Part shown: piece by piece, positions 23,982 through 37,905 of the stretch | Layout: each line of letters begins with the position of its first letter | Numbering within the stretch: the stretch's first letter is position 1 | Assembly (NCBI GenBank): GCA_964434055.1 | Contig: CAYSSY010000002.1 | Span: 16,076 to 69,557 of the forward strand | Reading direction: 5' to 3' | Length of the DNA: 53,482 nt | DNA from: an uncultured Gammaproteobacteria bacterium | Lineage (GTDB): Bacteria; Patescibacteriota; Patescibacteriia; UBA2196; CAYSSY01 | The notes under the pieces: generated by a model | Database searches by the model: none | What the model saw: only the letters and a program-made list of their open reading frames with translations | Told to the model about the DNA's origin: nothing | Program-made: the position numbers and the translations under genes

Positions 23982-24578
23982 TTAAAAATAATTCTTTATT
24001 TTTCTCAAAAAAATATCTATAGCGCTAGTGATAGTCAACGGGGGTTTTGAAAATTTTATTTTCAGACTATAAAAAGTTATCTCTTGATTTTTTGTTTCAA
24101 GTCCCGGAGAAGAAATAATGAAACGCAAACGCTTATTTTCTAGAACAGCGCCTTGTAGATCAAAAAAAACCTGAGCGTAAGAACGACCACTTTGATCAAC
24201 ATAACCGACGACATCCTTGACCTGCCACGACCAGGCATCCAGAGAATTTCTAACCCCAAGCATTAATGACTGCTCAGGCGGTTTTTTATATTCCAAAAAA
24301 ATTTCTGCTTGTCGAAATGATTGTGGCAATCTCACATCAAAATAAACTGGATCAATAACCATCTTTTGCTGACAAAATGCCTGTTCTTTTTCTATGGGCA
24401 AAACACGTCCATCGGGAGACAAACGTGAGATAAAAGGCGACTCGTTACAAAAATCATAATTTACTGCCAACTTACCTGATGGAATAAGATACCGATAAAA
24501 CAAAAAAACAAATAGTATAACCGGAGCGGCAATAATTATTAATCTAATAACCTTATAAAATTTATCAGTGTTCCTCAT
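23982..24578 (-). CDS. Single-pass membrane protein with extracellular domain
   Basis: N-terminal TM followed by a soluble domain; overlaps the GT-C gene stop. Confidence 0.7.
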   Translation of the reverse strand: MRNTDKFYKVIRLIIIAAPVILFVFLFYRYLIPSGKLAVNYDFCNESPFISRLSPDGRVLPIEKEQAFCQQKMVIDPVYFDVRLPQSFRQAEIFLEYKKPPEQSLMLGVRNSLDAWSWQVKDVVGYVDQSGRSYAQVFFDLQGAVLENKRLRFIISSPGLETKNQEITFYSLKIKFSKPPLTITSAIDIFLRKIKNYF

Positions 24579-26283
24579 TTATTTTCTCTTCACTATTACC
24601 TTTTATTAGCTCTATTTGGTAGAGCCAATCATTTTGAAATATTTTTCGCCCATTTCTAATAGCTAAATTATAAGGCAAAAAGACATTCTGAGAAGTGTAT
24701 TCAACAGCAGCAGGACTTAAAAAAGTATAATAAAAAACATTATTATTTTTAGCAACCAGCCTCGCCAAGCTAAAATAATCATAAGGCACAACTAAGGCGG
24801 TAATCAACCGACTAGTCACAGGAAAAATAAATTTATCAGCTTGCGGGTAAGTAACCACAATACTATCTGGTCTAAGCAACTGCTTTAAAATAAGAGACTT
24901 CTGTTGGTAGCTAAGAACGTTATTTTTTACCACAGACAAACTTTCATCCGTCTCAAAAATAACCAGATTTAAACTGCTTAAAAAAAGAATAATCATTAAA
25001 ACAGAGAAAAGAGAAGCTTTAAAGAAAAAATATTTAAATAGCCTGATAATTTCGTAAATAAAAATAGCAAGCAACGGTAAGGCCAATAAATAAATTGGTA
25101 GCCAGTATCTTAGATATGAGGTGCCGATTGAAACACTGGCCTGGTCAATCCTGTCTGAAATCTGCCAAGAACCGTAAAAAACTAAAAGATAAATTGACAC
25201 AAAAACCAAAACTATCAGGTAGGCAAAATTCTTTTTTCTATTTTCTGCCTTGAAATAGCGACCTGACAACAAAAAGATAATCAAACCGAATAAAGTCGGT
25301 ACTGACCAAAACCATAAAAATTTAACCAAATAATTATAACCATTTAGAATAATGCTTCTGGGGTTAAACCCGAAAGGAGTGACTAGAATTTGAAATAAAG
25401 CATGGCTGGCGATACCCTGAAAAATTCCTTGCCAGCCAGTGTTGTCGAAAGGTAGACGGTAACTAAAAGAAAAGAAGCTATTATATAAAACCAAATTATG
25501 ATAAAAAAGAGGTATTAAAAAAGTGGTTGCCCCAACAATAACAAAAAAAATGAACGGAACCCAGTTAATTTTTTTGAAATTAAAAAAAAGAATTAACAAG
25601 ACTACAATGGTTAGCCAAACCACTTCAGAGGTTCTGATTAAAACAGCCAAGCCCAAAAACAAACCGGCAAAAATATAGTGAAAATACTGAAAAATTTTTC
25701 TTTGACCAAAATTTTTTTTCTCCAAAGCGCTACACAAAAAATATAAACCAACGATTGCCGTAGAAACAAAAAAAATATTGTGATACATGCCACGCGCAGC
25801 ATAATACCACCAACCTGGAAAAAATAAAAGCAACACTGAACTAATAAAAGCTATCTTTTTGTCAAAAAATAATTTTAATAACAAATAAAAAAATAATACG
25901 GCCAGCGAGGCAAAAAATGGTGTTAGAAAAGGAATTACTTGGAGACCAATAATTTTTGCCAGAGCCCCATAAACCAAAACCATGCCCAAGAATGAACCAG
26001 GCACAATTTTACCCTGAAAACCGTTCATGCTCCTTGGATGAAGCAAACCGTTGCCAATCTCATTATCACTTTCCCAAAAATAAAGAGGCATACCATGAGC
26101 AACTCGGCTAGTCCAAAAATAGTTTGCCGTTTCATCAGGCGAATTGAATACCGGACCAACTGATAAATTCTTATGACTGGCTAAAGGAAACCAGGAATAA
26201 ATGACAAAAAAAACAATTGCCAAAAAGACTAAGATTATTATTTCTTTATTTTTTGAAAGGTAGCTATTAAAGTTAAATTTCAT
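24565..26283 (-). CDS. GT-C fold membrane glycosyltransferase (PMT/ArnT-like, GT39/GT83-like)
   Basis: Many TM segments; SPDETANY acidic pair in the first external loop; AVLIRTSE; RYWLPIY. Confidence 0.75.
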   Translation of the reverse strand: MKFNFNSYLSKNKEIIILVFLAIVFFVIYSWFPLASHKNLSVGPVFNSPDETANYFWTSRVAHGMPLYFWESDNEIGNGLLHPRSMNGFQGKIVPGSFLGMVLVYGALAKIIGLQVIPFLTPFFASLAVLFFYLLLKLFFDKKIAFISSVLLLFFPGWWYYAARGMYHNIFFVSTAIVGLYFLCSALEKKNFGQRKIFQYFHYIFAGLFLGLAVLIRTSEVVWLTIVVLLILFFNFKKINWVPFIFFVIVGATTFLIPLFYHNLVLYNSFFSFSYRLPFDNTGWQGIFQGIASHALFQILVTPFGFNPRSIILNGYNYLVKFLWFWSVPTLFGLIIFLLSGRYFKAENRKKNFAYLIVLVFVSIYLLVFYGSWQISDRIDQASVSIGTSYLRYWLPIYLLALPLLAIFIYEIIRLFKYFFFKASLFSVLMIILFLSSLNLVIFETDESLSVVKNNVLSYQQKSLILKQLLRPDSIVVTYPQADKFIFPVTSRLITALVVPYDYFSLARLVAKNNNVFYYTFLSPAAVEYTSQNVFLPYNLAIRNGRKIFQNDWLYQIELIKGNSEEKINEEH

Positions 26284-26472
26284 AAACTAATTATATCAGC
26301 AACAAAATAATAAAAAAAGTGCCTAACTGAAATAATCTAAAACATAATTGCTTATCTGTTAAGTGATAAATTTTAGCTTTATGCGGTCTTTTTATTTTTT
26401 TCTGATAAAATGTTAAAATTAGTAAAGCAAATCATTAGTTAAGCTCAGTGTTATCAGTTAATATATAAAAAC

Positions 26473-29902: not shown

Positions 29903-31474
29903 CTATTTCTTCGGTAAAAAAAATTTTTTAAAAACCTCAATCTCCGGTGATTTTAAATAATAAGTTAAAATAACATAGGTTAAAAGACCCAAACCGCCAG
30001 CAAACAACCCTTGTATTAACACACCCCAAAAGGTAGTCATATCAACAAAAAAAGAAAAAAATGGCTTAGCGATCTGAGTTACTAAAGCAGCCACTAAGGT
30101 AGCGAGACTAATCTTAATGACTGAAGCGAGAATTTGTTTCTCATCTAAATAACCAGCTCTCTGTCTTAAAATAATGAAAAGTAGAAGAACGTTAATAATA
30201 CTGGCAATGGAAAAAGCCAAAGCTAAGCCCTCAACACCAAATTTTTTCGTCAAAAAAAGTGATAAAATTAAATTTAAAATTAATGTAATTAGACTGATGA
30301 AAAAAGGAGTCTTGGTATCGTGTCGAGCGTAAAAAGCACGTGTAAAAATCGGCTGCACCCCTTGGGCAAAGAGAGATAAACAAAAAAATCCCAACGAATC
30401 AGCGGTTAAGATGGTGTCAGTCCAATCAAAATTACCAGCACCGAGAGTAACACGTACTATCTGAGCACGTAATAAAATTATTATGGCACTTAAGGGAATA
30501 ATTAGATAAAGCACCCGCCGAGTCGCCACTGAAAACTGAATCATATACCCCTCTTGATCGCCAGCACTATAACTTTCAGAGAAAGCCGGAAAAGCAGCGA
30601 GTGCTATTGAAATTGCAAAAATACCAATAGGAAAACTTTGCAAATTAAAAGCAAAATTAAATATGGCAAGAGAGCCTGCAGCCAAAGTTGAAGCAATAAT
30701 AGTTATAACAATCTGGTTAATCTGATTAATACCTAAAGCTACGGTGCGCGGCAACATTAACTTAATTACTTGTTTAACTTCTGGTAAATGCCAATTAAAG
30801 TGTCGGGACCAAAAAAAACCAGCCGCCATAATTGGTGGCACTTGAATCATCAAATGAAAAAAAGCTCCTAAAACTACCCCCCAAGCCAAACCAATGATCC
30901 CCAAAGGTTTAACCAAAAAAATAATTCCAAAAATTATGCCAAGATTATACATAATCGGTGCCAGGGAAAAAACAGCAAATTTCTTTAAAGAGTTTAAAAC
31001 ACCGCTAAAAACATTGCTAATACCAAAAAAAATAATGCTTAAAAGCATGATCCGTGTCAGTTTAACTGTTAGCTCAATTTTTTCCTGACTAAATCCTGGA
31101 GCAATTATTACCATCAGCTGACTAGCACCAAAAAAACATACCACCCCTAAAATTATTAAAACCAAAGTTAAAATATTTATAATGCCAGAAGCCAATTGCC
31201 AGGCTTTATGTCTTTCAGTCTCTGCTTGCCAAAGTTGAACAAAAACCGGAATAAAAGCCGCTGATAATGCGCCCAAAACAAGAGTGTTGAAAATTAAATC
31301 TGGCAGTTTAAAAGCGGCAAAATAAACATCAAGAATGTCTCCGGCGCCGAAATGCGAGGCCAGTAACCGATCACGAATTAAACCTAAAAAACGGGAAATA
31401 ATACTTAAAGCAGCAATTATGACTGCACCGCCGCCAATTGTCGTTTTTAATTTTTTAGATATTACCTGATACAT
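29903..31474 (-). CDS. murJ: Lipid II flippase MurJ (MviN)
   Basis: SRFLGLIRDRLLASHFG, AAFKLPDLIF, AAFIPVF, QSFPIGIF, RAFYARHDTKTP. Confidence 0.94.
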   Translation of the reverse strand: MYQVISKKLKTTIGGGAVIIAALSIISRFLGLIRDRLLASHFGAGDILDVYFAAFKLPDLIFNTLVLGALSAAFIPVFVQLWQAETERHKAWQLASGIINILTLVLIILGVVCFFGASQLMVIIAPGFSQEKIELTVKLTRIMLLSIIFFGISNVFSGVLNSLKKFAVFSLAPIMYNLGIIFGIIFLVKPLGIIGLAWGVVLGAFFHLMIQVPPIMAAGFFWSRHFNWHLPEVKQVIKLMLPRTVALGINQINQIVITIIASTLAAGSLAIFNFAFNLQSFPIGIFAISIALAAFPAFSESYSAGDQEGYMIQFSVATRRVLYLIIPLSAIIILLRAQIVRVTLGAGNFDWTDTILTADSLGFFCLSLFAQGVQPIFTRAFYARHDTKTPFFISLITLILNLILSLFLTKKFGVEGLALAFSIASIINVLLLFIILRQRAGYLDEKQILASVIKISLATLVAALVTQIAKPFFSFFVDMTTFWGVLIQGLFAGGLGLLTYVILTYYLKSPEIEVFKKFFLPKK

Positions 31475-31512
31475 TAATTTAATTCTATCATTTAACTTAA
31501 AATTTAAAAAGC

Positions 31513-31764
31513 AAAAAAAACCGGTAGGCTGCCGATTCTTGTCACCGAGTCTTAGACCATCACTTTAAATGATAATATAAGTATTGGGCGACTATCCAAA
31601 GTTTAAAGGGATAATGTTTTGAAGAGAAGAGAGATTTTGATTTTTTTACCTGTTATCGATGAAGAAAACAGGATTTGTTTATCTCCTCTAAACTCGTTTA
31701 AACCGGCAGCCTACCGGCTTCTCCTATTTTTAGGCAGAGCGCGCTTGATTGTGGTCTTTGATCT
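31513..31764 (-). ncRNA. Candidate structured non-coding RNA, unit 1 (~250 nt)
   Basis: Consensus promoter upstream; 14-bp closing stem 31521-31534/31704-31717 followed by T8 on the minus strand; internal stems with G-U pairs on the minus strand; no ORF or known family recognised. Confidence 0.6.
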
Positions 31765-31770
31765 TACTTA

Positions 31771-31798
31771 ATTATACTATTTTTTTAAAAATTGTCAA
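31771..31798 (-). promoter_or_regulatory. Sigma70-type promoter for RNA unit 1
   Basis: TTGACA (31793-31798), 16-nt spacer, TATAAT (31771-31776). Confidence 0.75.
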
Positions 31799-31858
31799 TT
31801 CTATTAAGATTTTATACAATATTAATACTGACCAATCAATTAAAACGCTAAACCTTTA

Positions 31859-32289
31859 TTAAGGAAAAATTTGGAGGTTAATCCGAAGTAAATTTAAAAA
31901 AATTTAGCTTCGATCCCCCAAAGACGAATCTTTAGTAGTGTCACTAAAAATTGTGACACGGTATTAAAGAGTTTCGTTGGTTATAAACGCACGGGGTACA
32001 TTATTCCCAACCTTAAGTCGCTTTAAAAAAGCAACGATCGGGAACGAGCACTATTTAGTCAAGAACAGACCAGTAAGGACCGGTCAAGGTGTCTTGATTA
32101 AAAAACAAGCGCCTAACCTCCAAATTTTTCCTTAAAAACACAAAAAGCAGCTTAAAGAGAAATATCTAAAGCCGCTTTTTGTGTTAGGTGTTAAGACAAA
32201 TATCTGTTTTATCTCGACACCTAAAAATTTAAGGCAAATCTCTCTTCGTTGAAATAAATATTTAAATTATTTTTTCAAAATTAATTTAA
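31859..32289 (-). ncRNA. Candidate structured non-coding RNA, unit 2 (~430 nt)
   Basis: Perfect promoter upstream; two 5' hairpins (32137-32185, 32185-32223); perfect 22-bp stem 31859-31880/32114-32135 enclosing a multibranch domain; no ORF. Confidence 0.6.
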
Positions 32290-32295
32290 CTGCTT

Positions 32296-32324
32296 ATTAT
32301 ACTCCTGTTAAACAAACTTGTCAA
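32296..32324 (-). promoter_or_regulatory. Sigma70-type promoter for RNA unit 2
   Basis: TTGACA (32319-32324), 17-nt spacer, TATAAT (32296-32301). Confidence 0.8.
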
Positions 32325-32387
32325 GTCAAATGCTAATTAATTTTATTTATAATTAGCAAAAAAGAGCTAATTTATTTAAAAAAAGCC

Positions 32388-32416
32388 TTGACAAATCCTA
32401 AAAAAAGACTTATAAT
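32388..32416 (+). promoter_or_regulatory. Sigma70-type promoter for the DUF11 adhesin gene
   Basis: TTGACA (32388-32393), 17-nt spacer, TATAAT (32411-32416). Confidence 0.8.
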
Positions 32417-32545
32417 AGCAAGTTAATAATTAAACTTTAATATAGAGAAGAGAGTTTGAGAATTAACTGTAAATTTCAAAAACTCTCATCTTTAAAAAAA
32501 GGGAGTTTTATTTTTTATCAATTTTGATAACTTAAAATTAAATAT

Positions 32546-35509
32546 ATGAAAAAATCTCAAAAAATATTTATTATTCTAGCTTTATCTTTAATTATAGCTA
32601 TTGTGTCTGTAAAAGATGTTTCTGCAACATCCAATCTCTGCGAAATAAACGCAGCTATAAATTATTCAGGGACGGATTATGTGAGTGTCTGCGCTTTTCA
32701 TAGTACCTGTCCTCAAGAAAGACTTAACGCAGCAACTGTTAATGTCTCTACAGCTGGCAACTACGAAGTCGAGGCTTATGTTTGGTACAACAGTGGTGAT
32801 GAACAAAAAAATGAAAGTTATTTTTTAGTTGTCAAAAACGCTAATGGCAATAAATCTTATCCTCTGGACGCTAATGCCGGCAAATATAAAGTAATCGCTG
32901 ATGATCCGGGCGATCCCCATGGTGCCACTCGCAAATCAGGAGTCTTTTATTTTGACCAAGGCATAAATACTATTGAACTTCATCATTATATCCAAATAGC
33001 CAGTCAGTATCCGGCCTATGTTGTGGCAGGACCAATTACCGGGCCAGAAAGTGTAAAAATTAAATCTTTAAAAATTAAATGCACTGTAACAGACCCGTGC
33101 ATAAATAACCACAAACCGGTTGCTAATGCCGGTTCTGATCAAACTGTCTTTTTGGGTGATACCGTTCAATTTGACGGCTCGCTGTCTAGCGATGCTGACG
33201 GTGACCAATTAACTTTTAAGTGGTATCTTGATAACGGTGCGGTTTTAGACGGCGACAAAGCTAGTTATGCAAATTTTGCCTTAGGCACACGTTATGTTAC
33301 CCTAACAGTTAATGATCAATGTAACTTGGTCCAAGACTACGTTTTAGTGCACGTCAATCCGAAAACCATAAATATAGTCAGCGATAAATTAGTTTCCGAC
33401 AATGATGAGATAAAAACTCACAGTAATACTTCTCGGCCAGGTGAGGAAATAATCTACACTTTAAAGATTGAGAATAAAAATTCTACCGCTATAAAAAATA
33501 TTCGACTGGAAGATAATTATGATCAAAACTATCTGATTGTTTTAAATCCAGATGGCGGTAGTGATAATGGTGATAAAATCAGTTGGCAACTTGGCGATCT
33601 TTCTTCTGGCGCTGTTGTCGAAAAAACAGTCAGAATGAAAATAAAAGATTCGATTACCAACAACCTAAACTTTAAAAACTACCTCTCTTGTCAGACAGAT
33701 AACGCTGGTAGCTGCGCTAATGAGGTAACTACTCAAGTGGTCTTACCGAATGTACCAGCTGAACTTTTTATCAGCAAAAGCGTTTCTGATAACAATGAAT
33801 CAAAAGTGGCTAACAATGTTGCTGAACGTAATGAATTATTAACTTATTACTTACGAGCTGAGAATCGAAGCCAGACGACAATAAAAAATTTGAGAATTGA
33901 AGATGATTATGATCAAAATTATACTGAAGTTATCTCATGGGAAACTGGCGGTAGTCATAATGGTGACAAAATTTCCTGGTCATTAGGAGATTTAGCACCC
34001 TATAGTGCTGTGGAAAAAACTATGATTGTGCGCGTTAAAGGTGATGTTGCTGATGAAACAAATTTTAAAAACTTTTTGCGTTCATATGCTGATAATGTCA
34101 GCTCTCAACAAAAAGAAGTCACAACCAGAATTGATGTTGTTAATCAAGATCAAGTTACATTGGCTCTCGATAAGACTGTTTCCGATAGTGATGAAACCAA
34201 TAAAGACTATACAAGTTCTCACAAAAATGAAGTTTTAACTTACCGCTTAGATTATCATGTTAATGGTCGCGGAATTGCCCGCAATGTTGTCCTGCGTGAT
34301 GATTATGACCAGCGCTATGTGCGTATTATTTCCACTGACGGCGGTTCAAACAATGGTAATGAGATTGTTTGGCAGTTGGGCAACCTGGAATCGGGTTACC
34401 ACACCACCCGTTATGTGACTGTCCAGATTGTTAATGATTTTGACAATAGCCTGGAAATAAGTAATTGGGCTTATTTAAGAGCTGATAACGCACCGGCCGT
34501 TGAAGACCGGGTCAGAACAAACATTGAAGGCAATATAGACAATCAAAATGCTTATTTAAATATTGTCAAAACTGTTTTTGACAATGACGAAAACGAAGTT
34601 CATCGCAACTCGGCTAATGTTGGCGAACAGTTGACTTATAAAATAAAAATTTCTAATAACTCCACAATGGTTGCCCAAAACGTCATTTTAACTGATGATT
34701 ATGATCAGAATAAAATTGTCATTATTTCCTTTACTGGCAATGCTAATGACAACGGTGACCAACTATCTTGGTCGATTGGAAATCTCGATCCAGGCAGGAC
34801 CGCTGAACGGTTTATAACCGCCAAAGTGAAAGAAAATCTGAGCGGTAATCCAATAGTCATTAATAACGTGGCTAAAGTTACCGGCAGTAATATTCAGACC
34901 ATGTCAGACCAAACTGTCACTACTGTAATTGCCAAACCAGAACTAAACGTCACCAAGACTGTCAGTGACAATGATGAATTCGATAGCCATAATAATACTG
35001 CTGAACCATTAGAAACATTACTGTATACTATAACTGTTGAAAATACTGGTTTAACAACTTTAGAAAATGTCGTGGTGATTGATAATTATGATGAGCGCTA
35101 TCTTAAAATTATTTCGACTGATAGTGGTACTGACGACGGACATGTTATTCGTTGGCAAATCAACAGTTTAAAAGCAGGTGAACAAACTACTAGAGTTTTA
35201 ACCGTTCAATTGAATGACCAGGTTAGAAATGGCCTAAACGTTCTTAATCGTGTGACAGCTACTGCAAACAATGTTAACCCTGATAATGATAGTACTTTAA
35301 CTTCTGTTTATATTCCCGGTGTTACAATAACCGCAACCTCAACTACTCCATATGCCCCGCGGACTGGTGCTGGTTTAATTTTTCCGGCTTTAGGCGGCCT
35401 GTCAGCTGGTTCACTCGCTGGTTTATCTTCATTCGCTTATCTTAAGAAAAAGAAAAAAGCCAAAAAAAATGATAATATTACAACTTCAATCAGATTTAAC
35501 CCGGCCTAA
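32546..35509 (+). CDS. Large secreted surface protein: PKD domain, five DUF11-like repeats, C-terminal sortase-type sorting signal
   Basis: Signal peptide; PKD (PVANAGSDQTV..FDGSLSSD); five ~130-aa repeats K-x-V-S-D-x-D-E...D-D/N-Y-D; APRTG + hydrophobic segment + KKKKKAKK. Confidence 0.85.
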   Translation: MKKSQKIFIILALSLIIAIVSVKDVSATSNLCEINAAINYSGTDYVSVCAFHSTCPQERLNAATVNVSTAGNYEVEAYVWYNSGDEQKNESYFLVVKNANGNKSYPLDANAGKYKVIADDPGDPHGATRKSGVFYFDQGINTIELHHYIQIASQYPAYVVAGPITGPESVKIKSLKIKCTVTDPCINNHKPVANAGSDQTVFLGDTVQFDGSLSSDADGDQLTFKWYLDNGAVLDGDKASYANFALGTRYVTLTVNDQCNLVQDYVLVHVNPKTINIVSDKLVSDNDEIKTHSNTSRPGEEIIYTLKIENKNSTAIKNIRLEDNYDQNYLIVLNPDGGSDNGDKISWQLGDLSSGAVVEKTVRMKIKDSITNNLNFKNYLSCQTDNAGSCANEVTTQVVLPNVPAELFISKSVSDNNESKVANNVAERNELLTYYLRAENRSQTTIKNLRIEDDYDQNYTEVISWETGGSHNGDKISWSLGDLAPYSAVEKTMIVRVKGDVADETNFKNFLRSYADNVSSQQKEVTTRIDVVNQDQVTLALDKTVSDSDETNKDYTSSHKNEVLTYRLDYHVNGRGIARNVVLRDDYDQRYVRIISTDGGSNNGNEIVWQLGNLESGYHTTRYVTVQIVNDFDNSLEISNWAYLRADNAPAVEDRVRTNIEGNIDNQNAYLNIVKTVFDNDENEVHRNSANVGEQLTYKIKISNNSTMVAQNVILTDDYDQNKIVIISFTGNANDNGDQLSWSIGNLDPGRTAERFITAKVKENLSGNPIVINNVAKVTGSNIQTMSDQTVTTVIAKPELNVTKTVSDNDEFDSHNNTAEPLETLLYTITVENTGLTTLENVVVIDNYDERYLKIISTDSGTDDGHVIRWQINSLKAGEQTTRVLTVQLNDQVRNGLNVLNRVTATANNVNPDNDSTLTSVYIPGVTITATSTTPYAPRTGAGLIFPALGGLSAGSLAGLSSFAYLKKKKKAKKNDNITTSIRFNPA

Positions 35510-35530
35510 AATATTCGTTGATAAAGAAAT

Positions 35531-36361
35531 ATGAACGGTAATCCTTATAATACTAACCAACTTGATGTTAAAAAAAGCAGCAAAAGAGCAATTGTTTTAT
35601 CATTAATAACTTTTGCCATTGTTTCTTTTGGCGCTGGTGTGACCATCTTTGCCTTACAGCAAAAAAACATTCAAGACAATAAATTATTGGCACTAAATTA
35701 TAGTTCTCCCATTAGTGGCATGGTTCTGGGAGCAAAAACAAATGTTAATCAAACTGTAAAAATTGCCGTTTATTCAAAAGAACTTGATCCTGATCAGGAT
35801 GGTTTGAATAATAAAATGGAAGAAATTTTAGGAACTGACCCGAACAATCCTGATACTGACAAAGACGGCAAAAAAGATGGCTATGAAATGAATGTTGGCG
35901 ATGATCCAACATCATTGGGAAAAATAAATACTTCAATTAATATCCCAAAAATAAAAATAACCGCACCGGTTATTTGGTCAGCTTCAACCGACGAAGCCAG
36001 TATTCAAAAAGACCTGCAAAAGGGAGTTATCCATTATCCAGGAACTTCTATGCCTGGTCAAACTGGTAATTCATTTATAACTGGCCATTCTTCTGACTAC
36101 AGTTGGACCAAAGGAAATTACAAAAATATTTTTAGTAATCTCCATAAACTTAATGTGGGTGATTCGGTAAAAATTGAATATAATCTACACAACGGACGAC
36201 GCATCACTTATGAATACAAAATAATTTCAGAAGACATAGTAATGCCGAACGACAGCCGTTTATTTGAAAAAACCAATAAGAAAATCTTGACCTTGGTCAC
36301 TTGTTGGCCGCTCAACTCGAGCTGGAAACGATTAATGTTTAAAGCGGTGCTGGTGGAATAA
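35531..36361 (+). CDS. Sortase with N-terminal TM and DxDxDG calcium-binding repeats
   Basis: GVIHYPGT..PGQTGNSFITGHS (His), LTLVTCWP (Cys), KRLMFKA (Arg); DPDQDG and DTDKDG repeats. Confidence 0.9.
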   Translation: MNGNPYNTNQLDVKKSSKRAIVLSLITFAIVSFGAGVTIFALQQKNIQDNKLLALNYSSPISGMVLGAKTNVNQTVKIAVYSKELDPDQDGLNNKMEEILGTDPNNPDTDKDGKKDGYEMNVGDDPTSLGKINTSINIPKIKITAPVIWSASTDEASIQKDLQKGVIHYPGTSMPGQTGNSFITGHSSDYSWTKGNYKNIFSNLHKLNVGDSVKIEYNLHNGRRITYEYKIISEDIVMPNDSRLFEKTNKKILTLVTCWPLNSSWKRLMFKAVLVE

Positions 36362-36415: not shown

Positions 36416-37813
36416 TTAATTACTAACGAAAACTGGCGTACCAACAACAACCCAATCATAAAGTTCTTCAGCAGCTACAAGTGATAATCTGACACAGCCG
36501 TGTGAAACACGCTGACCTAAATGATTAGCACCTTCATAAACAATTTTTTTACCATTTTTCCAATAAGGCAGACCGTGAATGCCGGCACCTCCCCAGGTAA
36601 AACCCAACCAGTGAGGCATATAAAGATTATATGCCCGGGAATAAGCAACCTCAATTTTATTTAAAATTTTAAATTCTCCAATTGGAGTCGGCATGCTTTT
36701 TTTACCACTGGAAACAATTTGCTCATTTATCAGATAACCATTCTGATAATAGCGCAATTTCTGTTCTGATATATCAACTGCTATATATTTCTCTATTTTT
36801 TTTTCAGCAGTCTTTATTCTCTCCTGAGCCACAACTAACTCTAACTTTCTGTCGCCGTCAATATCGCCAACAATAGTCTGCAAGCCACCTTGATAATCTT
36901 TTTCAAAAGGCTTAAGTTCCCGCACCACTTTTTTACTGCTCAAATTAACAAATAATAAAAGCGGCTCTGACAGTAAACCACCGGAAACAATTATTTCTTT
37001 ATCCTGACCATTGTTATAAAATGAAAAATTAATTTCTTTGGATTTAAATTGATCAAACGACAATTCCCAAATATTTCTGCCCGAATACTGGTAAGCCTGT
37101 ATAACCGGACGCCCTAATTTAAAACCACTAATAAATATTTCATTTTTTTTGTCAGAATCAAAATCAAAAATTTGAATTTGTTTTATTACTGTTAGCCCAT
37201 CAAGAGATAATTCTTGATTTAACTGTCCGAGCAAATTAAAAATTCTTATCTTGCTCGGTGCACTACGTTGCCAGACAATAATTTCCGGCTTATTATCATT
37301 ATCAACATCACCGGCAGTAACTCTGATCCCGGAAAGGTCTTTCTTGTCTCCACTAAAAAAACCGGGGTTAATTTTCATTTTCCCAAAACCATCTAAAATC
37401 CTAACATGCGGTCCGCCGCCCTCACCTGCCCCGACCACCAACTCGCTTTTCTTATCATTATCAAAATCAGCCGTTGTTAAACTGACTCCACCAAAAAAAT
37501 TCTCATTATAAACTAAATATTCATTAATCAGATTTCCATAACCATCAAAAATTTTTAACCAAGGCTGCCCGCCGGTACCGTTAGTCAAAACTATTTCCTG
37601 TTGTCCGTCACCGCCTAAATCGACTAATGAAAAATTAATCTGACGCGCTTTGTCACCAATATCAGCAACTTTAAAAATTCGTTCTGTTGTTAATTTCTCA
37701 TAATCTAAAACTTTTAACAGATATTGCTGACTACTATCTTGAGCAATAACACTGTCCGCACTGCTTAAAAAAAATAGAGAACTGACAATACTAATAAAAT
37801 AAAAATATTTCAT
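36416..37813 (-). CDS. L,D-transpeptidase (YkuD) with N-terminal FG-GAP/VCBS repeats
   Basis: Signal peptide; DxDxDGxxE repeats with GAGEGGGPHVRI; YIAVDISEQ, TPIGEF, GIHG, SHGCVRL. Confidence 0.9.
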   Translation of the reverse strand: MKYFYFISIVSSLFFLSSADSVIAQDSSQQYLLKVLDYEKLTTERIFKVADIGDKARQINFSLVDLGGDGQQEIVLTNGTGGQPWLKIFDGYGNLINEYLVYNENFFGGVSLTTADFDNDKKSELVVGAGEGGGPHVRILDGFGKMKINPGFFSGDKKDLSGIRVTAGDVDNDNKPEIIVWQRSAPSKIRIFNLLGQLNQELSLDGLTVIKQIQIFDFDSDKKNEIFISGFKLGRPVIQAYQYSGRNIWELSFDQFKSKEINFSFYNNGQDKEIIVSGGLLSEPLLLFVNLSSKKVVRELKPFEKDYQGGLQTIVGDIDGDRKLELVVAQERIKTAEKKIEKYIAVDISEQKLRYYQNGYLINEQIVSSGKKSMPTPIGEFKILNKIEVAYSRAYNLYMPHWLGFTWGGAGIHGLPYWKNGKKIVYEGANHLGQRVSHGCVRLSLVAAEELYDWVVVGTPVFVSN

Positions 37814-37905
37814 GTTTAAATGATAGCAAAAAAATGTCTTTCAAGCAAAAAAATATCACCCCGAGTATGGAAGGGTGACATTTCATTAATAAAATTTTTT
37901 ATTTT

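What the first reader, a model, noticed from the sequence alone, without database searches (positions are those of the whole stretch)
31513..31764. RNA unit 1: self-terminating ~250-nt folded RNA directly upstream of murJ
On the minus strand CCGGTAGGCTGCCG(GTT) pairs with (AAT)CGGCAGCCTACCGG about 170 nt away and is followed at once by T8, so the closing stem could double as an intrinsic terminator. Internal stems are CCTGTT/AACAGG, ATTATCC/GGATAGT, GTCGCC/GGTGAC and ATCA/TGAT. murJ starts about 40 nt after the T-run on the same strand. The element could be a stand-alone sRNA or an attenuator controlling read-through into the lipid II flippase.
Basis: partly seen in the sequence, partly recalled or inferred. 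Interest (0 to 1): 0.72.

Follow-up and report, generated by a model that had tools for sequence, protein, structure and literature searches.

The report
Orphan structured small RNA gene beside murJ
A Patescibacteria (CPR) genome carries what looks like a stand-alone, strongly folded 252-nt non-coding RNA gene with its own consensus promoter and terminator just upstream of murJ, but it has no detectable relatives and no sign of being a conserved murJ regulator, so it is a plausible but ordinary orphan sRNA candidate.

Summary
On the minus strand, a 14-nt perfect arm (17 with its extension), CCGGTAGGCTGCCG(GTT) at 31717-31701, pairs with (AAT)CGGCAGCCTACCGG at 31537-21. The arms lie 169 nt apart and T8 (31520-13) follows at once. 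All four internal stems exist.

The fold z-score is -5.9 to -6.9. That ranks third of 426 windows, behind RNase P RNA and a neighbouring RNA I call unit 2.

A perfect TTGACA-N16-TATAAT promoter sits 7 nt upstream of 31764. Only four such promoters occur in 53 kb. One drives RNase P RNA and the other three lie in this 1,071-nt gap. The transcribed strand has no ORF.

I read unit 1 as a stand-alone, end-clamped sRNA gene, in tandem with a second, larger one (about 32289-31856).

The attenuator version is not supported:
- murJ has its own extended -10 box (TGATAGAAT) 7 nt before the ATG.
- In 75 other Patescibacteria the gap upstream of murJ has a median of 32 nt.
- blastn, nhmmer, a covariance model and a structural descriptor scan found no homolog in about 1 Mb.

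Rfam has no match. The only other copies are 100% identical, from the same species. So there is no covariation evidence, and the function remains inferred.

The parts
31793..31798 (-). -35 hexamer TTGACA of the unit 1 promoter
   Evidence: 12/12 consensus match with a 16-nt spacer. It is one of only 4 perfect TTGACA-N16-18-TATAAT sites in 53 kb.
31771..31776 (-). -10 hexamer TATAAT of the unit 1 promoter
   Evidence: The equivalent perfect promoter at 11486-11459 ends 8 nt before the Rfam RNase P RNA match. That serves as an internal control that such sites mark RNA genes in this genome.
31718..31764 (-). 5' tail of about 47 nt, C/A-rich and largely unpaired (AGAUCAAAGACCACAAUCAAGCGCGCUCUGCCUAAAAAUAGGAGAAG). 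The start at 31764/31763 is inferred from promoter spacing.
   Evidence: The MFE leaves it mostly single-stranded. The start site is inferred, not mapped.
31701..31717 (-). 5' arm of closing helix P1 (CCGGUAGGCUGCCGGUU). It is itself a near-palindrome that can form a local hairpin.
   Evidence: The local hairpin AAGCCGGUA-GGC-UGCCGGUUU has -11.2 kcal/mol.
31616..31693 (-). P2 domain: GUUU.GAGGAGA / UCUCUUC.AAAC enclosing hairpin CCUGUU...AACAGG (31672-31649), an A-run and a pyrimidine tract (31637-31617)
   Evidence: the inner hairpin has P=0.95 and the outer P2 only P=0.4.
31593..31613 (-). P3 hairpin UAUCC-CUUUAAACUUU-GGAUA
   Evidence: P=0.48. Its loop UUUAAAC could pair with GUUUAAA at 31703-31697 (seen by eye, not significant).
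31541..31592 (-). P4 three-tier hairpin (GUCGCC/GGUGAC, CUUA/UAAG, AUUAUCAUU/AGUGAUGGU)
   Evidence: P=0.94-0.99. It contains G-U pairs on the minus-strand reading.
31521..31537 (-). 3' arm of closing helix P1 (AAUCGGCAGCCUACCGG)
   Evidence: On its own it forms only a -2.3 kcal/mol hairpin.
31513..31520 (-). U8 tract directly after P1: the intrinsic-terminator tail
   Evidence: Ordinary GC-stem plus T-run terminators are common in this genome.
31482..31490 (-). Extended -10 box TGATAGAAT of murJ, 7 nt before the ATG (probably a leaderless mRNA)
   Evidence: The same TGnTAnnAT box lies 6-7 nt before the ATG at ORFs 24565-26283 and 36416-37813. The genome almost never uses Shine-Dalgarno sequences. 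Inferred.
29903..31474 (-). murJ (lipid II flippase), the downstream neighbour. I do not consider it controlled by unit 1.
   Evidence: PF03023 MurJ; best named homologs are from Patescibacteria.
31856..32324 (-). Unit 2, the tandem upstream RNA gene. Perfect promoter at 32324-32296, two 5' hairpins, then a 25-bp closing stem (32138-32114 / 31880-31856) around a 233-nt multi-hairpin core.
   Evidence: (z=-10.1).

Best explanation
Unit 1 is an independent gene for a stable, structured non-coding RNA of about 252 nt. It is one of two tandem RNA genes in a 1.07-kb 'RNA island' of a Patescibacteria chromosome.

Proposed mechanism:
1. RNA polymerase starts at about 31764 from a perfect sigma-70 promoter.
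2. The 5' arm first folds locally. The interior then folds into three hairpin domains (P2/P2a, P3, P4).
3. When the 3' arm emerges, it displaces the local hairpin and forms a 17-bp GC-rich helix with the 5' arm. Pairing of AGGAGAAG with U8 could extend this to 26 bp.
4. Because that helix abuts U8, it acts as the hairpin of an intrinsic terminator and releases the RNA 38 nt before murJ.
5. The same helix clamps the two ends, as in other stable RNAs. A 47-nt C/A-rich 5' tail and internal A-rich and pyrimidine-rich loops stay free for base-pairing or protein binding.
6. murJ is then transcribed from its own extended -10 promoter, probably as a leaderless mRNA.

Shown by sequence analysis: the promoter, helices, T-run, absence of an ORF, exceptional fold stability and absence from other murJ loci. 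Inferred: transcription itself, the 5' and 3' ends, the folding order, RNA stability and any trans-acting function.
For: - Promoter: perfect TTGACA-N16-TATAAT at 31798-31771. There are only 4 perfect sites in 53 kb (about 0.1 expected, my estimate). One sits 8 nt upstream of RNase P RNA and three lie in this gap.
- Stability: closing helix plus U8. Fold z is -6.9. It ranks 3rd of 426 windows, next to RNase P RNA and unit 2.
- Long-range stems: the two strongest long-range inverted repeats in the whole window are the closing stems of units 2 and 1.
- Coding: no ORF of 20 aa or more on the transcribed strand.
- Composition: GC is 31-36% in units 1 and 2, against 20-23% in the true spacer at 32150-32600.
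- murJ promoter: murJ has its own TGATAGAAT box 7 nt before the ATG, a pattern shared with two other genes.
- murJ elsewhere: the upstream gap has a median of 32 nt in 75 species. pyrG-murJ-lepA synteny has short spacers in relatives at about 57% identity.
- Presence in the species: the whole gap is present in three further same-species contigs from independent sources.
Against: - No expression data.
- No homolog in any other species, so there is no covariation. The same-species copies are 100% identical in unit 1, but genome-wide divergence is only 0.27%, so that identity says nothing.
- The plus strand folds nearly as well (z=-5.1).
- A terminator hairpin with a 169-nt structured 'loop' is atypical and may be kinetically slow. 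The 5' arm is pre-occupied by a -11.2 kcal/mol local hairpin.
- The arms are exact reverse complements, which a recent inverted duplication would also produce without any selection.
- Target predictions are not significant. The 15-nt match to ftsW/rodA mRNA has p about 0.1, and 11-12-nt matches are common.
Confidence: 0.55

Rival explanations
1. Unit 1 is a cis-acting leader or attenuator, possibly riboswitch-like, for murJ. The strong promoter would really be murJ's promoter. Formation of the closing helix (P1 doubling as the terminator) versus the competing local hairpin of the 5' arm would set the read-through into the lipid II flippase gene, perhaps in response to a ligand or a cell-envelope signal.
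For: - It lies on the same strand, 38 nt upstream of murJ.
- The 5' arm is a near-palindrome (6 of 7 positions, p about 1e-3 by my estimate). It forms a -11.2 kcal/mol local hairpin, mutually exclusive with the terminator helix, while the 3' arm alone gives only -2.3 kcal/mol.
- The neighbourhood is rich in cell-envelope genes: UDP-glucose dehydrogenase, sortase and an L,D-transpeptidase.
Against: - No riboswitch or leader family matches at E<=10.
- No such element lies upstream of murJ in 75 Patescibacteria (median gap 32 nt). No homolog was found by blastn/nhmmer, descriptor scan or covariance model.
- murJ has its own extended -10 at leaderless distance.
- The closed form is 20 kcal/mol more stable than the alternative, so the default state is strong termination.
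- The interior loops are AU-rich and low in information.
- No murJ riboswitch is reported in the literature searched.
Confidence: 0.15
2. Units 2 and 1 are domains of one long precursor that starts at about 32289 and ends at the U8 of unit 1 (about 775 nt). The long perfect closing duplexes (25 bp and 17-26 bp) would be RNase III processing stems, like those flanking rRNAs, that release the structured cores.
For: - Unit 2 has no convincing terminator after its closing stem and runs straight into the unit 1 promoter.
- Both units share the same architecture of a long closing duplex around a multi-hairpin core.
- Duplexes of 20 bp or more are classic RNase III substrates (established knowledge).
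Against: - Unit 1 has its own perfect promoter, which a mere downstream domain would not need.
- No RNase III gene or cleavage data are available here.
- This reading is compatible with the main explanation rather than exclusive of it.
Confidence: 0.12
3. There is no dedicated function. The arms would come from a recent inverted duplication of a palindromic terminator-like sequence, or act as DNA-level palindromic protein-binding sites 170 bp apart. Any RNA made would be incidental.
For: - The arms are exact reverse complements and each is nearly palindromic (sequence).
- There is no conservation outside the species.
- The plus strand folds almost as well.
Against: - This does not explain the perfect promoter placed 47 nt upstream of the 5' arm, nor the three independent internal hairpins with P of 0.94 or more.
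- It does not explain the coding-like GC content inside a gap whose true spacer is 20% GC.
- It does not explain the neighbouring second RNA with the same architecture.
Confidence: 0.1
4. Unit 1 is a miniature inverted-repeat transposable element or another repeated mobile element, with the arms as terminal inverted repeats.
For: Formally, inverted repeats of 14-31 nt flank a 163-169-nt core.
Against: - There is no second copy of the arm in the 53-kb window.
- The 3' arm plus T-run occurs in the JGI metagenome collection only on the same-species contig; the other two hits are unrelated GC-rich coding sequence.
- Five viral-contig hits to the arm 17-mer show no similarity to the window.
- No target-site duplication is visible next to the arms.
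- There are no hits in phage or plasmid collections.
Confidence: 0.02

Closest known systems
End-clamped stable bacterial RNAs expressed from their own strong promoters (6S RNA/SsrS, RNase P RNA, bacterial Y RNA/YrlA)
   Same: - It has its own consensus promoter, as the RNase P RNA gene of this same genome does.
- The 5' and 3' regions pair in a long terminal helix.
- It is highly structured, has no ORF and is 200-400 nt long.
   Different: - No Rfam model matches, including 6S, even at E<=10.
- The interior is a multi-hairpin junction, not the central-bubble rod of 6S.
- A 47-nt 5' tail lies outside the clamp.
- There is no Ro/Rsr gene nearby.
Transcription-terminating riboswitches and attenuators (for example the ydaO/c-di-AMP riboswitch upstream of cell-wall genes)
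   Same: - A structured leader-sized RNA lies on the same strand just upstream of a cell-envelope gene.
- A terminator helix competes with an alternative hairpin.
   Different: - The terminator hairpin is the closing helix of the whole fold, not a separate expression platform.
- There is no match to any riboswitch family.
- It is not linked to murJ in other Patescibacteria.
- The downstream gene has its own promoter.
Orphan structured ncRNAs of unknown function found by genomics (raiA, OLE, ROOL, GOLLD and similar)
   Same: It is a well-folded non-coding RNA with no assigned biochemical role, found in an uncultivated or poorly studied lineage.
   Different: Those classes are defined by covariation across many genomes. 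Unit 1 is known from one species only and matches none of them in Rfam.
hok-type type I toxin mRNAs with 5'-3' fold-back pairing
   Same: Long-range pairing between the 5' and 3' regions closes a compact, stable transcript made from a strong promoter.
   Different: There is no small ORF on the transcribed strand, and no antisense RNA gene is evident.

Membership tests
Stand-alone bacterial sRNA gene | Own promoter upstream of a non-coding region | tested here: met
   12/12 TTGACA-N16-TATAAT at 31798-31771. It is one of 4 in 53 kb, and another drives RNase P RNA.
Stand-alone bacterial sRNA gene | Own Rho-independent terminator before the next gene | tested here: met
   A 17-bp GC-rich helix is directly followed by U8, 38 nt before murJ. 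The helix is long-range, which is atypical.
Stand-alone bacterial sRNA gene | No protein-coding potential on the transcribed strand | tested here: met
   No minus-strand ORF of 20 aa or more lies within 31513-31764.
Stand-alone bacterial sRNA gene | A discrete transcript is detected | not testable with these tools
   No transcriptome data were available.
Canonical intrinsic terminator | GC-rich stem immediately followed by a U-tract | tested here: met
   CGGCAGCCUACCGG followed by U8.
Canonical intrinsic terminator | Short loop (about 3-8 nt), so the hairpin forms locally | tested here: not met
   169 nt lie between the arms. The only local hairpin of the 3' arm has -2.3 kcal/mol.
Riboswitch / cis attenuator of murJ | Match to a described aptamer or leader family | tested here: not met
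   Rfam 15 gave nothing relevant at the gathering threshold or at E<=10.
Riboswitch / cis attenuator of murJ | Conserved linkage to the regulated gene across taxa | tested here: not met
   In 75 Patescibacteria murJ loci the median upstream gap is 32 nt. There were no blastn, nhmmer, covariance-model or descriptor hits.
Riboswitch / cis attenuator of murJ | Mutually exclusive terminator and anti-terminator structures | tested here: inconclusive
   The local hairpin of the 5' arm (-11.2 kcal/mol) competes with P1. The closed form is nevertheless 20 kcal/mol more stable overall.
6S RNA | Rfam RF00013 match, and a rod-like fold with a central bubble | tested here: not met
   No 6S hit at E<=10. 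The predicted interior is a 3-4-way junction.
MITE / repeated mobile element | Several copies per genome or across genomes | tested here: not met
   The arm is unique in the window. In JGI it is found only on the same-species contig. There is nothing in phages or plasmids.
Type I toxin-antitoxin mRNA | Small hydrophobic ORF within the folded transcript | tested here: not met

The most novel reading that the evidence does not exclude
Units 1 and 2 could be founding members of new, lineage-specific classes of abundant end-clamped structured RNAs in Patescibacteria, expressed at housekeeping level like RNase P RNA. Unit 1 would act either in the peptidoglycan pathway (murJ next door; a 15-nt match to ftsW/rodA mRNA) or as a new kind of switch in which the aptamer's closing helix is itself the terminator hairpin.
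Probability: 0.12. Interest if true: 0.6.

Novelty: new member of a known kind. Interest (0 to 1): 0.33.

Why it matters
CPR/Patescibacteria have tiny genomes and almost no described regulatory RNAs. A 1-kb non-coding island there, carrying two RNA genes with promoters as strong as that of RNase P RNA, implies abundant RNAs with a real cellular role. If transcription is confirmed, these would be among the first lineage-specific sRNAs of this group. They would also be a natural example of a terminator whose hairpin is closed over a 169-nt folded insert.

As it stands, the element is known from one species only and has no covariation or expression evidence. It is a good but ordinary sRNA candidate, and the idea that it controls the lipid II flippase gene is not supported.

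Tried and rejected
- Rfam 15, at the gathering threshold on the whole window and at E<=10 on 31300-32700: only RNase P RNA at 11017-11450, nothing for the gap.
- ARAGORN: no tRNA or tmRNA.
- The closest murJ relative (73% identity, L001) has only 76 nt upstream. Its local alignment to unit 1 scores 31, against 23 +/- 3.7 for shuffles, which is not significant.
- Homolog search with the DUF11/PKD surface protein was swamped by PKD-domain hits. Its N-terminal 187 aa found nothing.
- blastn and nhmmer of units 1 and 2 against 0.94 Mb of Patescibacteria loci: nothing.
- Descriptor scan (12-bp long-range stem plus T6): the only other hit was L021 2149-2339, upstream of murJ in a GC-rich genome. I rejected it because its 3' arm is an ordinary local terminator hairpin and the fold z is only -1.9.
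- Single-sequence covariance model R1: the best full-length hit, L088 5786-5982 (16.6 bits, E about 0.1), overlaps the 3' end of a 1074-aa ORF and has a mismatched closing stem. I rejected it.
- JGI scan for the 3' arm plus T6: the same-species contig plus two chance hits in GC-rich coding DNA.
- Viral scan of the arm: chance hits only.
- Phage and plasmid blastn: nothing meaningful.
- Target prediction with long-sequence duplexfold gave meaningless long duplexes.
- Exact-complement analysis: 11-12-nt matches are common. The 15-nt match to ftsW/rodA mRNA has p about 0.10.
- Three TTTAAA motifs in loops have p about 0.04.
- Strain comparison is uninformative, because divergence is only 0.27%.
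- The structured window at 11765-12014 turned out to hold an ordinary small SD-bearing ORF and its terminator.
- Literature searches found no description of such RNAs in Patescibacteria and no murJ riboswitch.

Full report
**1. What is in the sequence**

I read the region on the minus strand. The non-coding gap between murJ (29903-31474, minus) and a 987-aa ORF (32546-35509, plus) is 1,071 nt. That is very long for this genome.

- 5' arm CCGGTAGGCTGCCG(GTT) at 31717-31701.
- 3' arm (AAT)CGGCAGCCTACCGG at 31537-31521.
- 169 nt between the 14-nt perfect arms.
- T8 at 31520-31513.
- murJ ATG 38 nt further on.

The 14-mer occurs nowhere else in the window. The MFE and partition function give these helices:
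- A closing helix of 17 bp (P=0.91), extensible to 26 bp through AGGAGAAG/U8 pairs.
- P2 (GAGGAGA/UCUCUUC, P about 0.4), enclosing a firm hairpin CCUGUU/AACAGG (P=0.95).
- P3 (UAUCC/GGAUA, P about 0.5).
- A three-tier P4 (GUCGCC/GGUGAC, CUUA/UAAG, AUUAUCAUU/AGUGAUGGU; P=0.94-0.99).

**2. Is it more than chance?**

The 261-nt stretch 31505-31765 folds at -84.3 kcal/mol, z=-6.9, and none of 200 dinucleotide shuffles is as stable. As a control within the genome, I scored 426 windows of 250 nt across the whole 53 kb on both strands. The three most extreme are RNase P RNA (z=-7.4), a neighbouring element I call unit 2 (-6.5) and unit 1 (-5.9).

Among long-range inverted repeats (more than 100 nt apart) in the whole window, the two strongest are the closing stems of unit 2 and unit 1. 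GC is 31-36% across units 1 and 2. It drops to 20-23% in the true spacer at 32150-32600.

**3. Promoter evidence**

A perfect TTGACA-N16-TATAAT lies at 31798-31771.

The whole window has only four perfect TTGACA-N16-18-TATAAT sites. From base composition I estimate about 0.1 expected. One ends 8 nt upstream of the Rfam RNase P RNA match. That is a built-in control showing that such sites mark strongly expressed RNA genes here.

The other three are all in this gap:
- One for unit 1.
- One at 32324-32296 for unit 2 (minus strand).
- One at 32388-32416 for the plus-strand 987-aa gene.

That gene encodes a DUF11 x5 + PKD surface protein and is followed by a sortase gene.

Unit 1 has no ORF of 20 aa or more on its transcribed strand. 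The plus strand folds nearly as well (z=-5.1), so the strand call rests on the promoter and the U8, not on the fold.

**4. Unit 2**

From about 32289 the minus strand encodes two hairpins. The second is a 17-bp stem followed by U5. A 25-bp, 96% complementary closing stem follows (32138-32114 / 31880-31856), around a 233-nt multi-hairpin core. The fold z for 31800-32295 is -10.1.

Unit 1 is therefore the downstream member of a tandem pair with a shared architecture: a long closing duplex around a folded core.

**5. Relation to murJ**

The ORF is a bona fide MurJ (PF03023), and its named homologs are Patescibacteria. Four observations argue against a murJ leader or attenuator.

(a) The 38-nt spacer contains TGATAGAAT, an extended -10 box ending 7 nt before the ATG. 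The same TGnTAnnAT box sits 6-7 nt before the ATG of two other genes, 24565-26283 and 36416-37813. The genome almost never uses Shine-Dalgarno sequences. murJ is therefore plausibly a leaderless mRNA with its own promoter. This is an inference.

(b) In relatives with about 57% MurJ identity, the context is pyrG-murJ-lepA with spacers of 108-190 nt and no similar element.

(c) A GTDB scan with a MurJ alignment returned 80 Patescibacteria loci. In 75 of them the non-coding gap upstream of murJ could be measured. Its median is 32 nt, and only five gaps exceed 350 nt. None of those five holds an Rfam family.

(d) No homolog of unit 1 was found in about 1 Mb of these loci by any method:
- blastn and nhmmer found nothing.
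- A structural descriptor scan gave one other hit, L021. It is an ordinary local terminator with a chance upstream repeat, fold z -1.9.
- A covariance model built from unit 1 gave 275.7 bits against itself. Its best other full-length hit was L088, 16.6 bits, overlapping a coding region with a mismatched closing stem.

**6. Distribution**

The organism is sparsely sampled.
- Three contigs from other sources (Logan, ENA, JGI) carry the whole gap at 99.6% identity, with unit 1 identical. Overall divergence is only 0.27%, so this says nothing about selection.
- The next relative (73% MurJ identity) is a 2.4-kb contig with only 76 nt upstream of murJ and no significant similarity.
- The 3' arm plus T6 occurs in the JGI metagenome collection only on the same-species contig. 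The other two hits are unrelated GC-rich coding sequences.
- Phage, plasmid and viral-contig searches gave nothing meaningful.

Unit 1 is therefore not a repeated or mobile element. It also has no comparative support.

**7. Alternative structure**

The 5' arm is itself a near-palindrome, complementary at 6 of 7 positions. I estimate p about 1e-3 for a random 15-mer.
- It can form a local hairpin of -11.2 kcal/mol. Prefix folds show it is occupied in this or a leader-paired form until the 3' arm is made.
- The 3' arm alone forms only a -2.3 kcal/mol hairpin.
- The full-length RNA with the local 5' hairpin forced has -61.5 kcal/mol, against -81.5 for the closed form.

So termination needs long-range strand displacement. 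This is the one feature that keeps a switch-like reading alive. From general knowledge, supplying the upstream arm of a terminator hairpin in trans can trigger transcript release (Yarnell and Roberts 1999, recalled from memory and not checked here). A long-range arm is therefore mechanistically acceptable.

**8. Possible targets (weak leads only)**

- The 8-mer GAAGAGAG occurs four times in the window, and three of those are in the gap. Unit 1 carries its complement. The motif itself is in the 5' part of unit 2 and in the leader of the surface-protein mRNA.
- Complements of 11-12 nt to unit 1 are common in this AT-rich window.
- The longest match, 15 nt, is to the sense strand of the FtsW/RodA-family gene (13425-13439; gene identified). 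It has p about 0.10 against shuffles.
- Three TTTAAA motifs in the junction and loops have p about 0.04.

**9. Comparison with known systems**

Unit 1 works like an end-clamped stable sRNA with its own promoter and terminator. Its layout resembles 6S RNA, RNase P RNA or Y RNA only in having a terminal helix.

It matches no Rfam family. It lacks the 6S rod-and-bubble shape, it has no small ORF as type I toxin mRNAs do, and it fails the conservation test for a riboswitch. It differs from a textbook intrinsic terminator in having a 169-nt folded insert in place of a loop. Literature searches found no description of such RNAs in Patescibacteria and no murJ riboswitch.

**10. Verdict**

The stand-alone RNA gene is the best reading (confidence about 0.55). 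The rival readings are:
- murJ attenuator, about 0.15.
- Domain of a unit 2-unit 1 precursor processed at the long duplexes, about 0.12.
- Incidental or DNA-level inverted duplication, about 0.10.
- MITE, about 0.02.

Without expression or covariation data the function remains inferred. I rate it as a good but ordinary orphan sRNA candidate (interest 0.33): a new member of a known kind.

Noticed in passing
window 31856-32324 (minus strand): Unit 2 is a second, larger RNA gene candidate in tandem upstream of unit 1. It has a perfect promoter at 32324-32296, two 5' hairpins (the second a 17-bp stem plus U5 at 32185-32132), then a 25-bp, 96% closing stem around a 233-nt multi-hairpin core. Fold z is -10.1. 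It has no Rfam match and no clear terminator of its own.
   Followed up: partly
window 11017-11486 (minus strand): RNase P RNA, bacterial class A (149 bits), is driven by the only perfect sigma-70 consensus promoter outside the murJ gap. I used it as an internal control.
   Followed up: yes
window 31482-31490, about 26287-26295 and about 37820-37828 (minus strand): Three genes (murJ, a PMT_2 glycosyltransferase and an L,D-transpeptidase) have an extended -10 box TGnTAnnAT ending 6-7 nt before the ATG. Almost no gene in the window has a Shine-Dalgarno sequence. This suggests widespread leaderless or SD-independent translation in this organism.
   Followed up: partly
window 32388-36361 (plus strand): A 987-aa DUF11 x5 + PKD surface protein has a perfect promoter and a leader of about 125 nt containing a hairpin (GAGAGUUU...AAACUCUC). 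A sortase gene follows. The protein has no ortholog in the 5.8-billion-protein database beyond PKD-domain hits, and its N-terminal 187 aa are unique.
   Followed up: partly
window 31626-31633 (+), 32240-32247 (-), 32447-32454 (+): GAGAAGAGAG-type purine motif: three of the four GAAGAGAG 8-mers in the window lie in the gap. The pyrimidine tract of unit 1 is complementary to the copies in the 5' part of unit 2 and in the surface-protein leader. Matches of 11-12 nt are not rare here, so this is only a lead.
   Followed up: partly
window 13425-13439 (minus strand, inside the FtsW/RodA-family gene 12776-13879): A 15-nt perfect complement to unit 1 (31642-31656) lies on the sense strand of a SEDS peptidoglycan polymerase gene. 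That gene belongs to the same pathway as murJ. p is about 0.10 against shuffles.
   Followed up: yes
window 11563-11997 (plus strand): A strongly folding window (z=-5.7) turned out to hold a small ORF (ATG at 11655, about 91 aa) with a rare GGAGGTGA Shine-Dalgarno sequence, an 11/12 promoter at 11563-11592 and a 12-bp terminator at 11967-11997.
   Followed up: partly
L021 1925-2463: A GC-rich Patescibacteria genome has a 538-nt non-coding stretch upstream of murJ. It ends in a terminator (CGCACGG-GAUA-CCGUGCG plus U6) whose 5' arm is repeated 170 nt upstream. It has no Rfam match and a fold z of only -1.9. It is probably unrelated to unit 1.
   Followed up: partly
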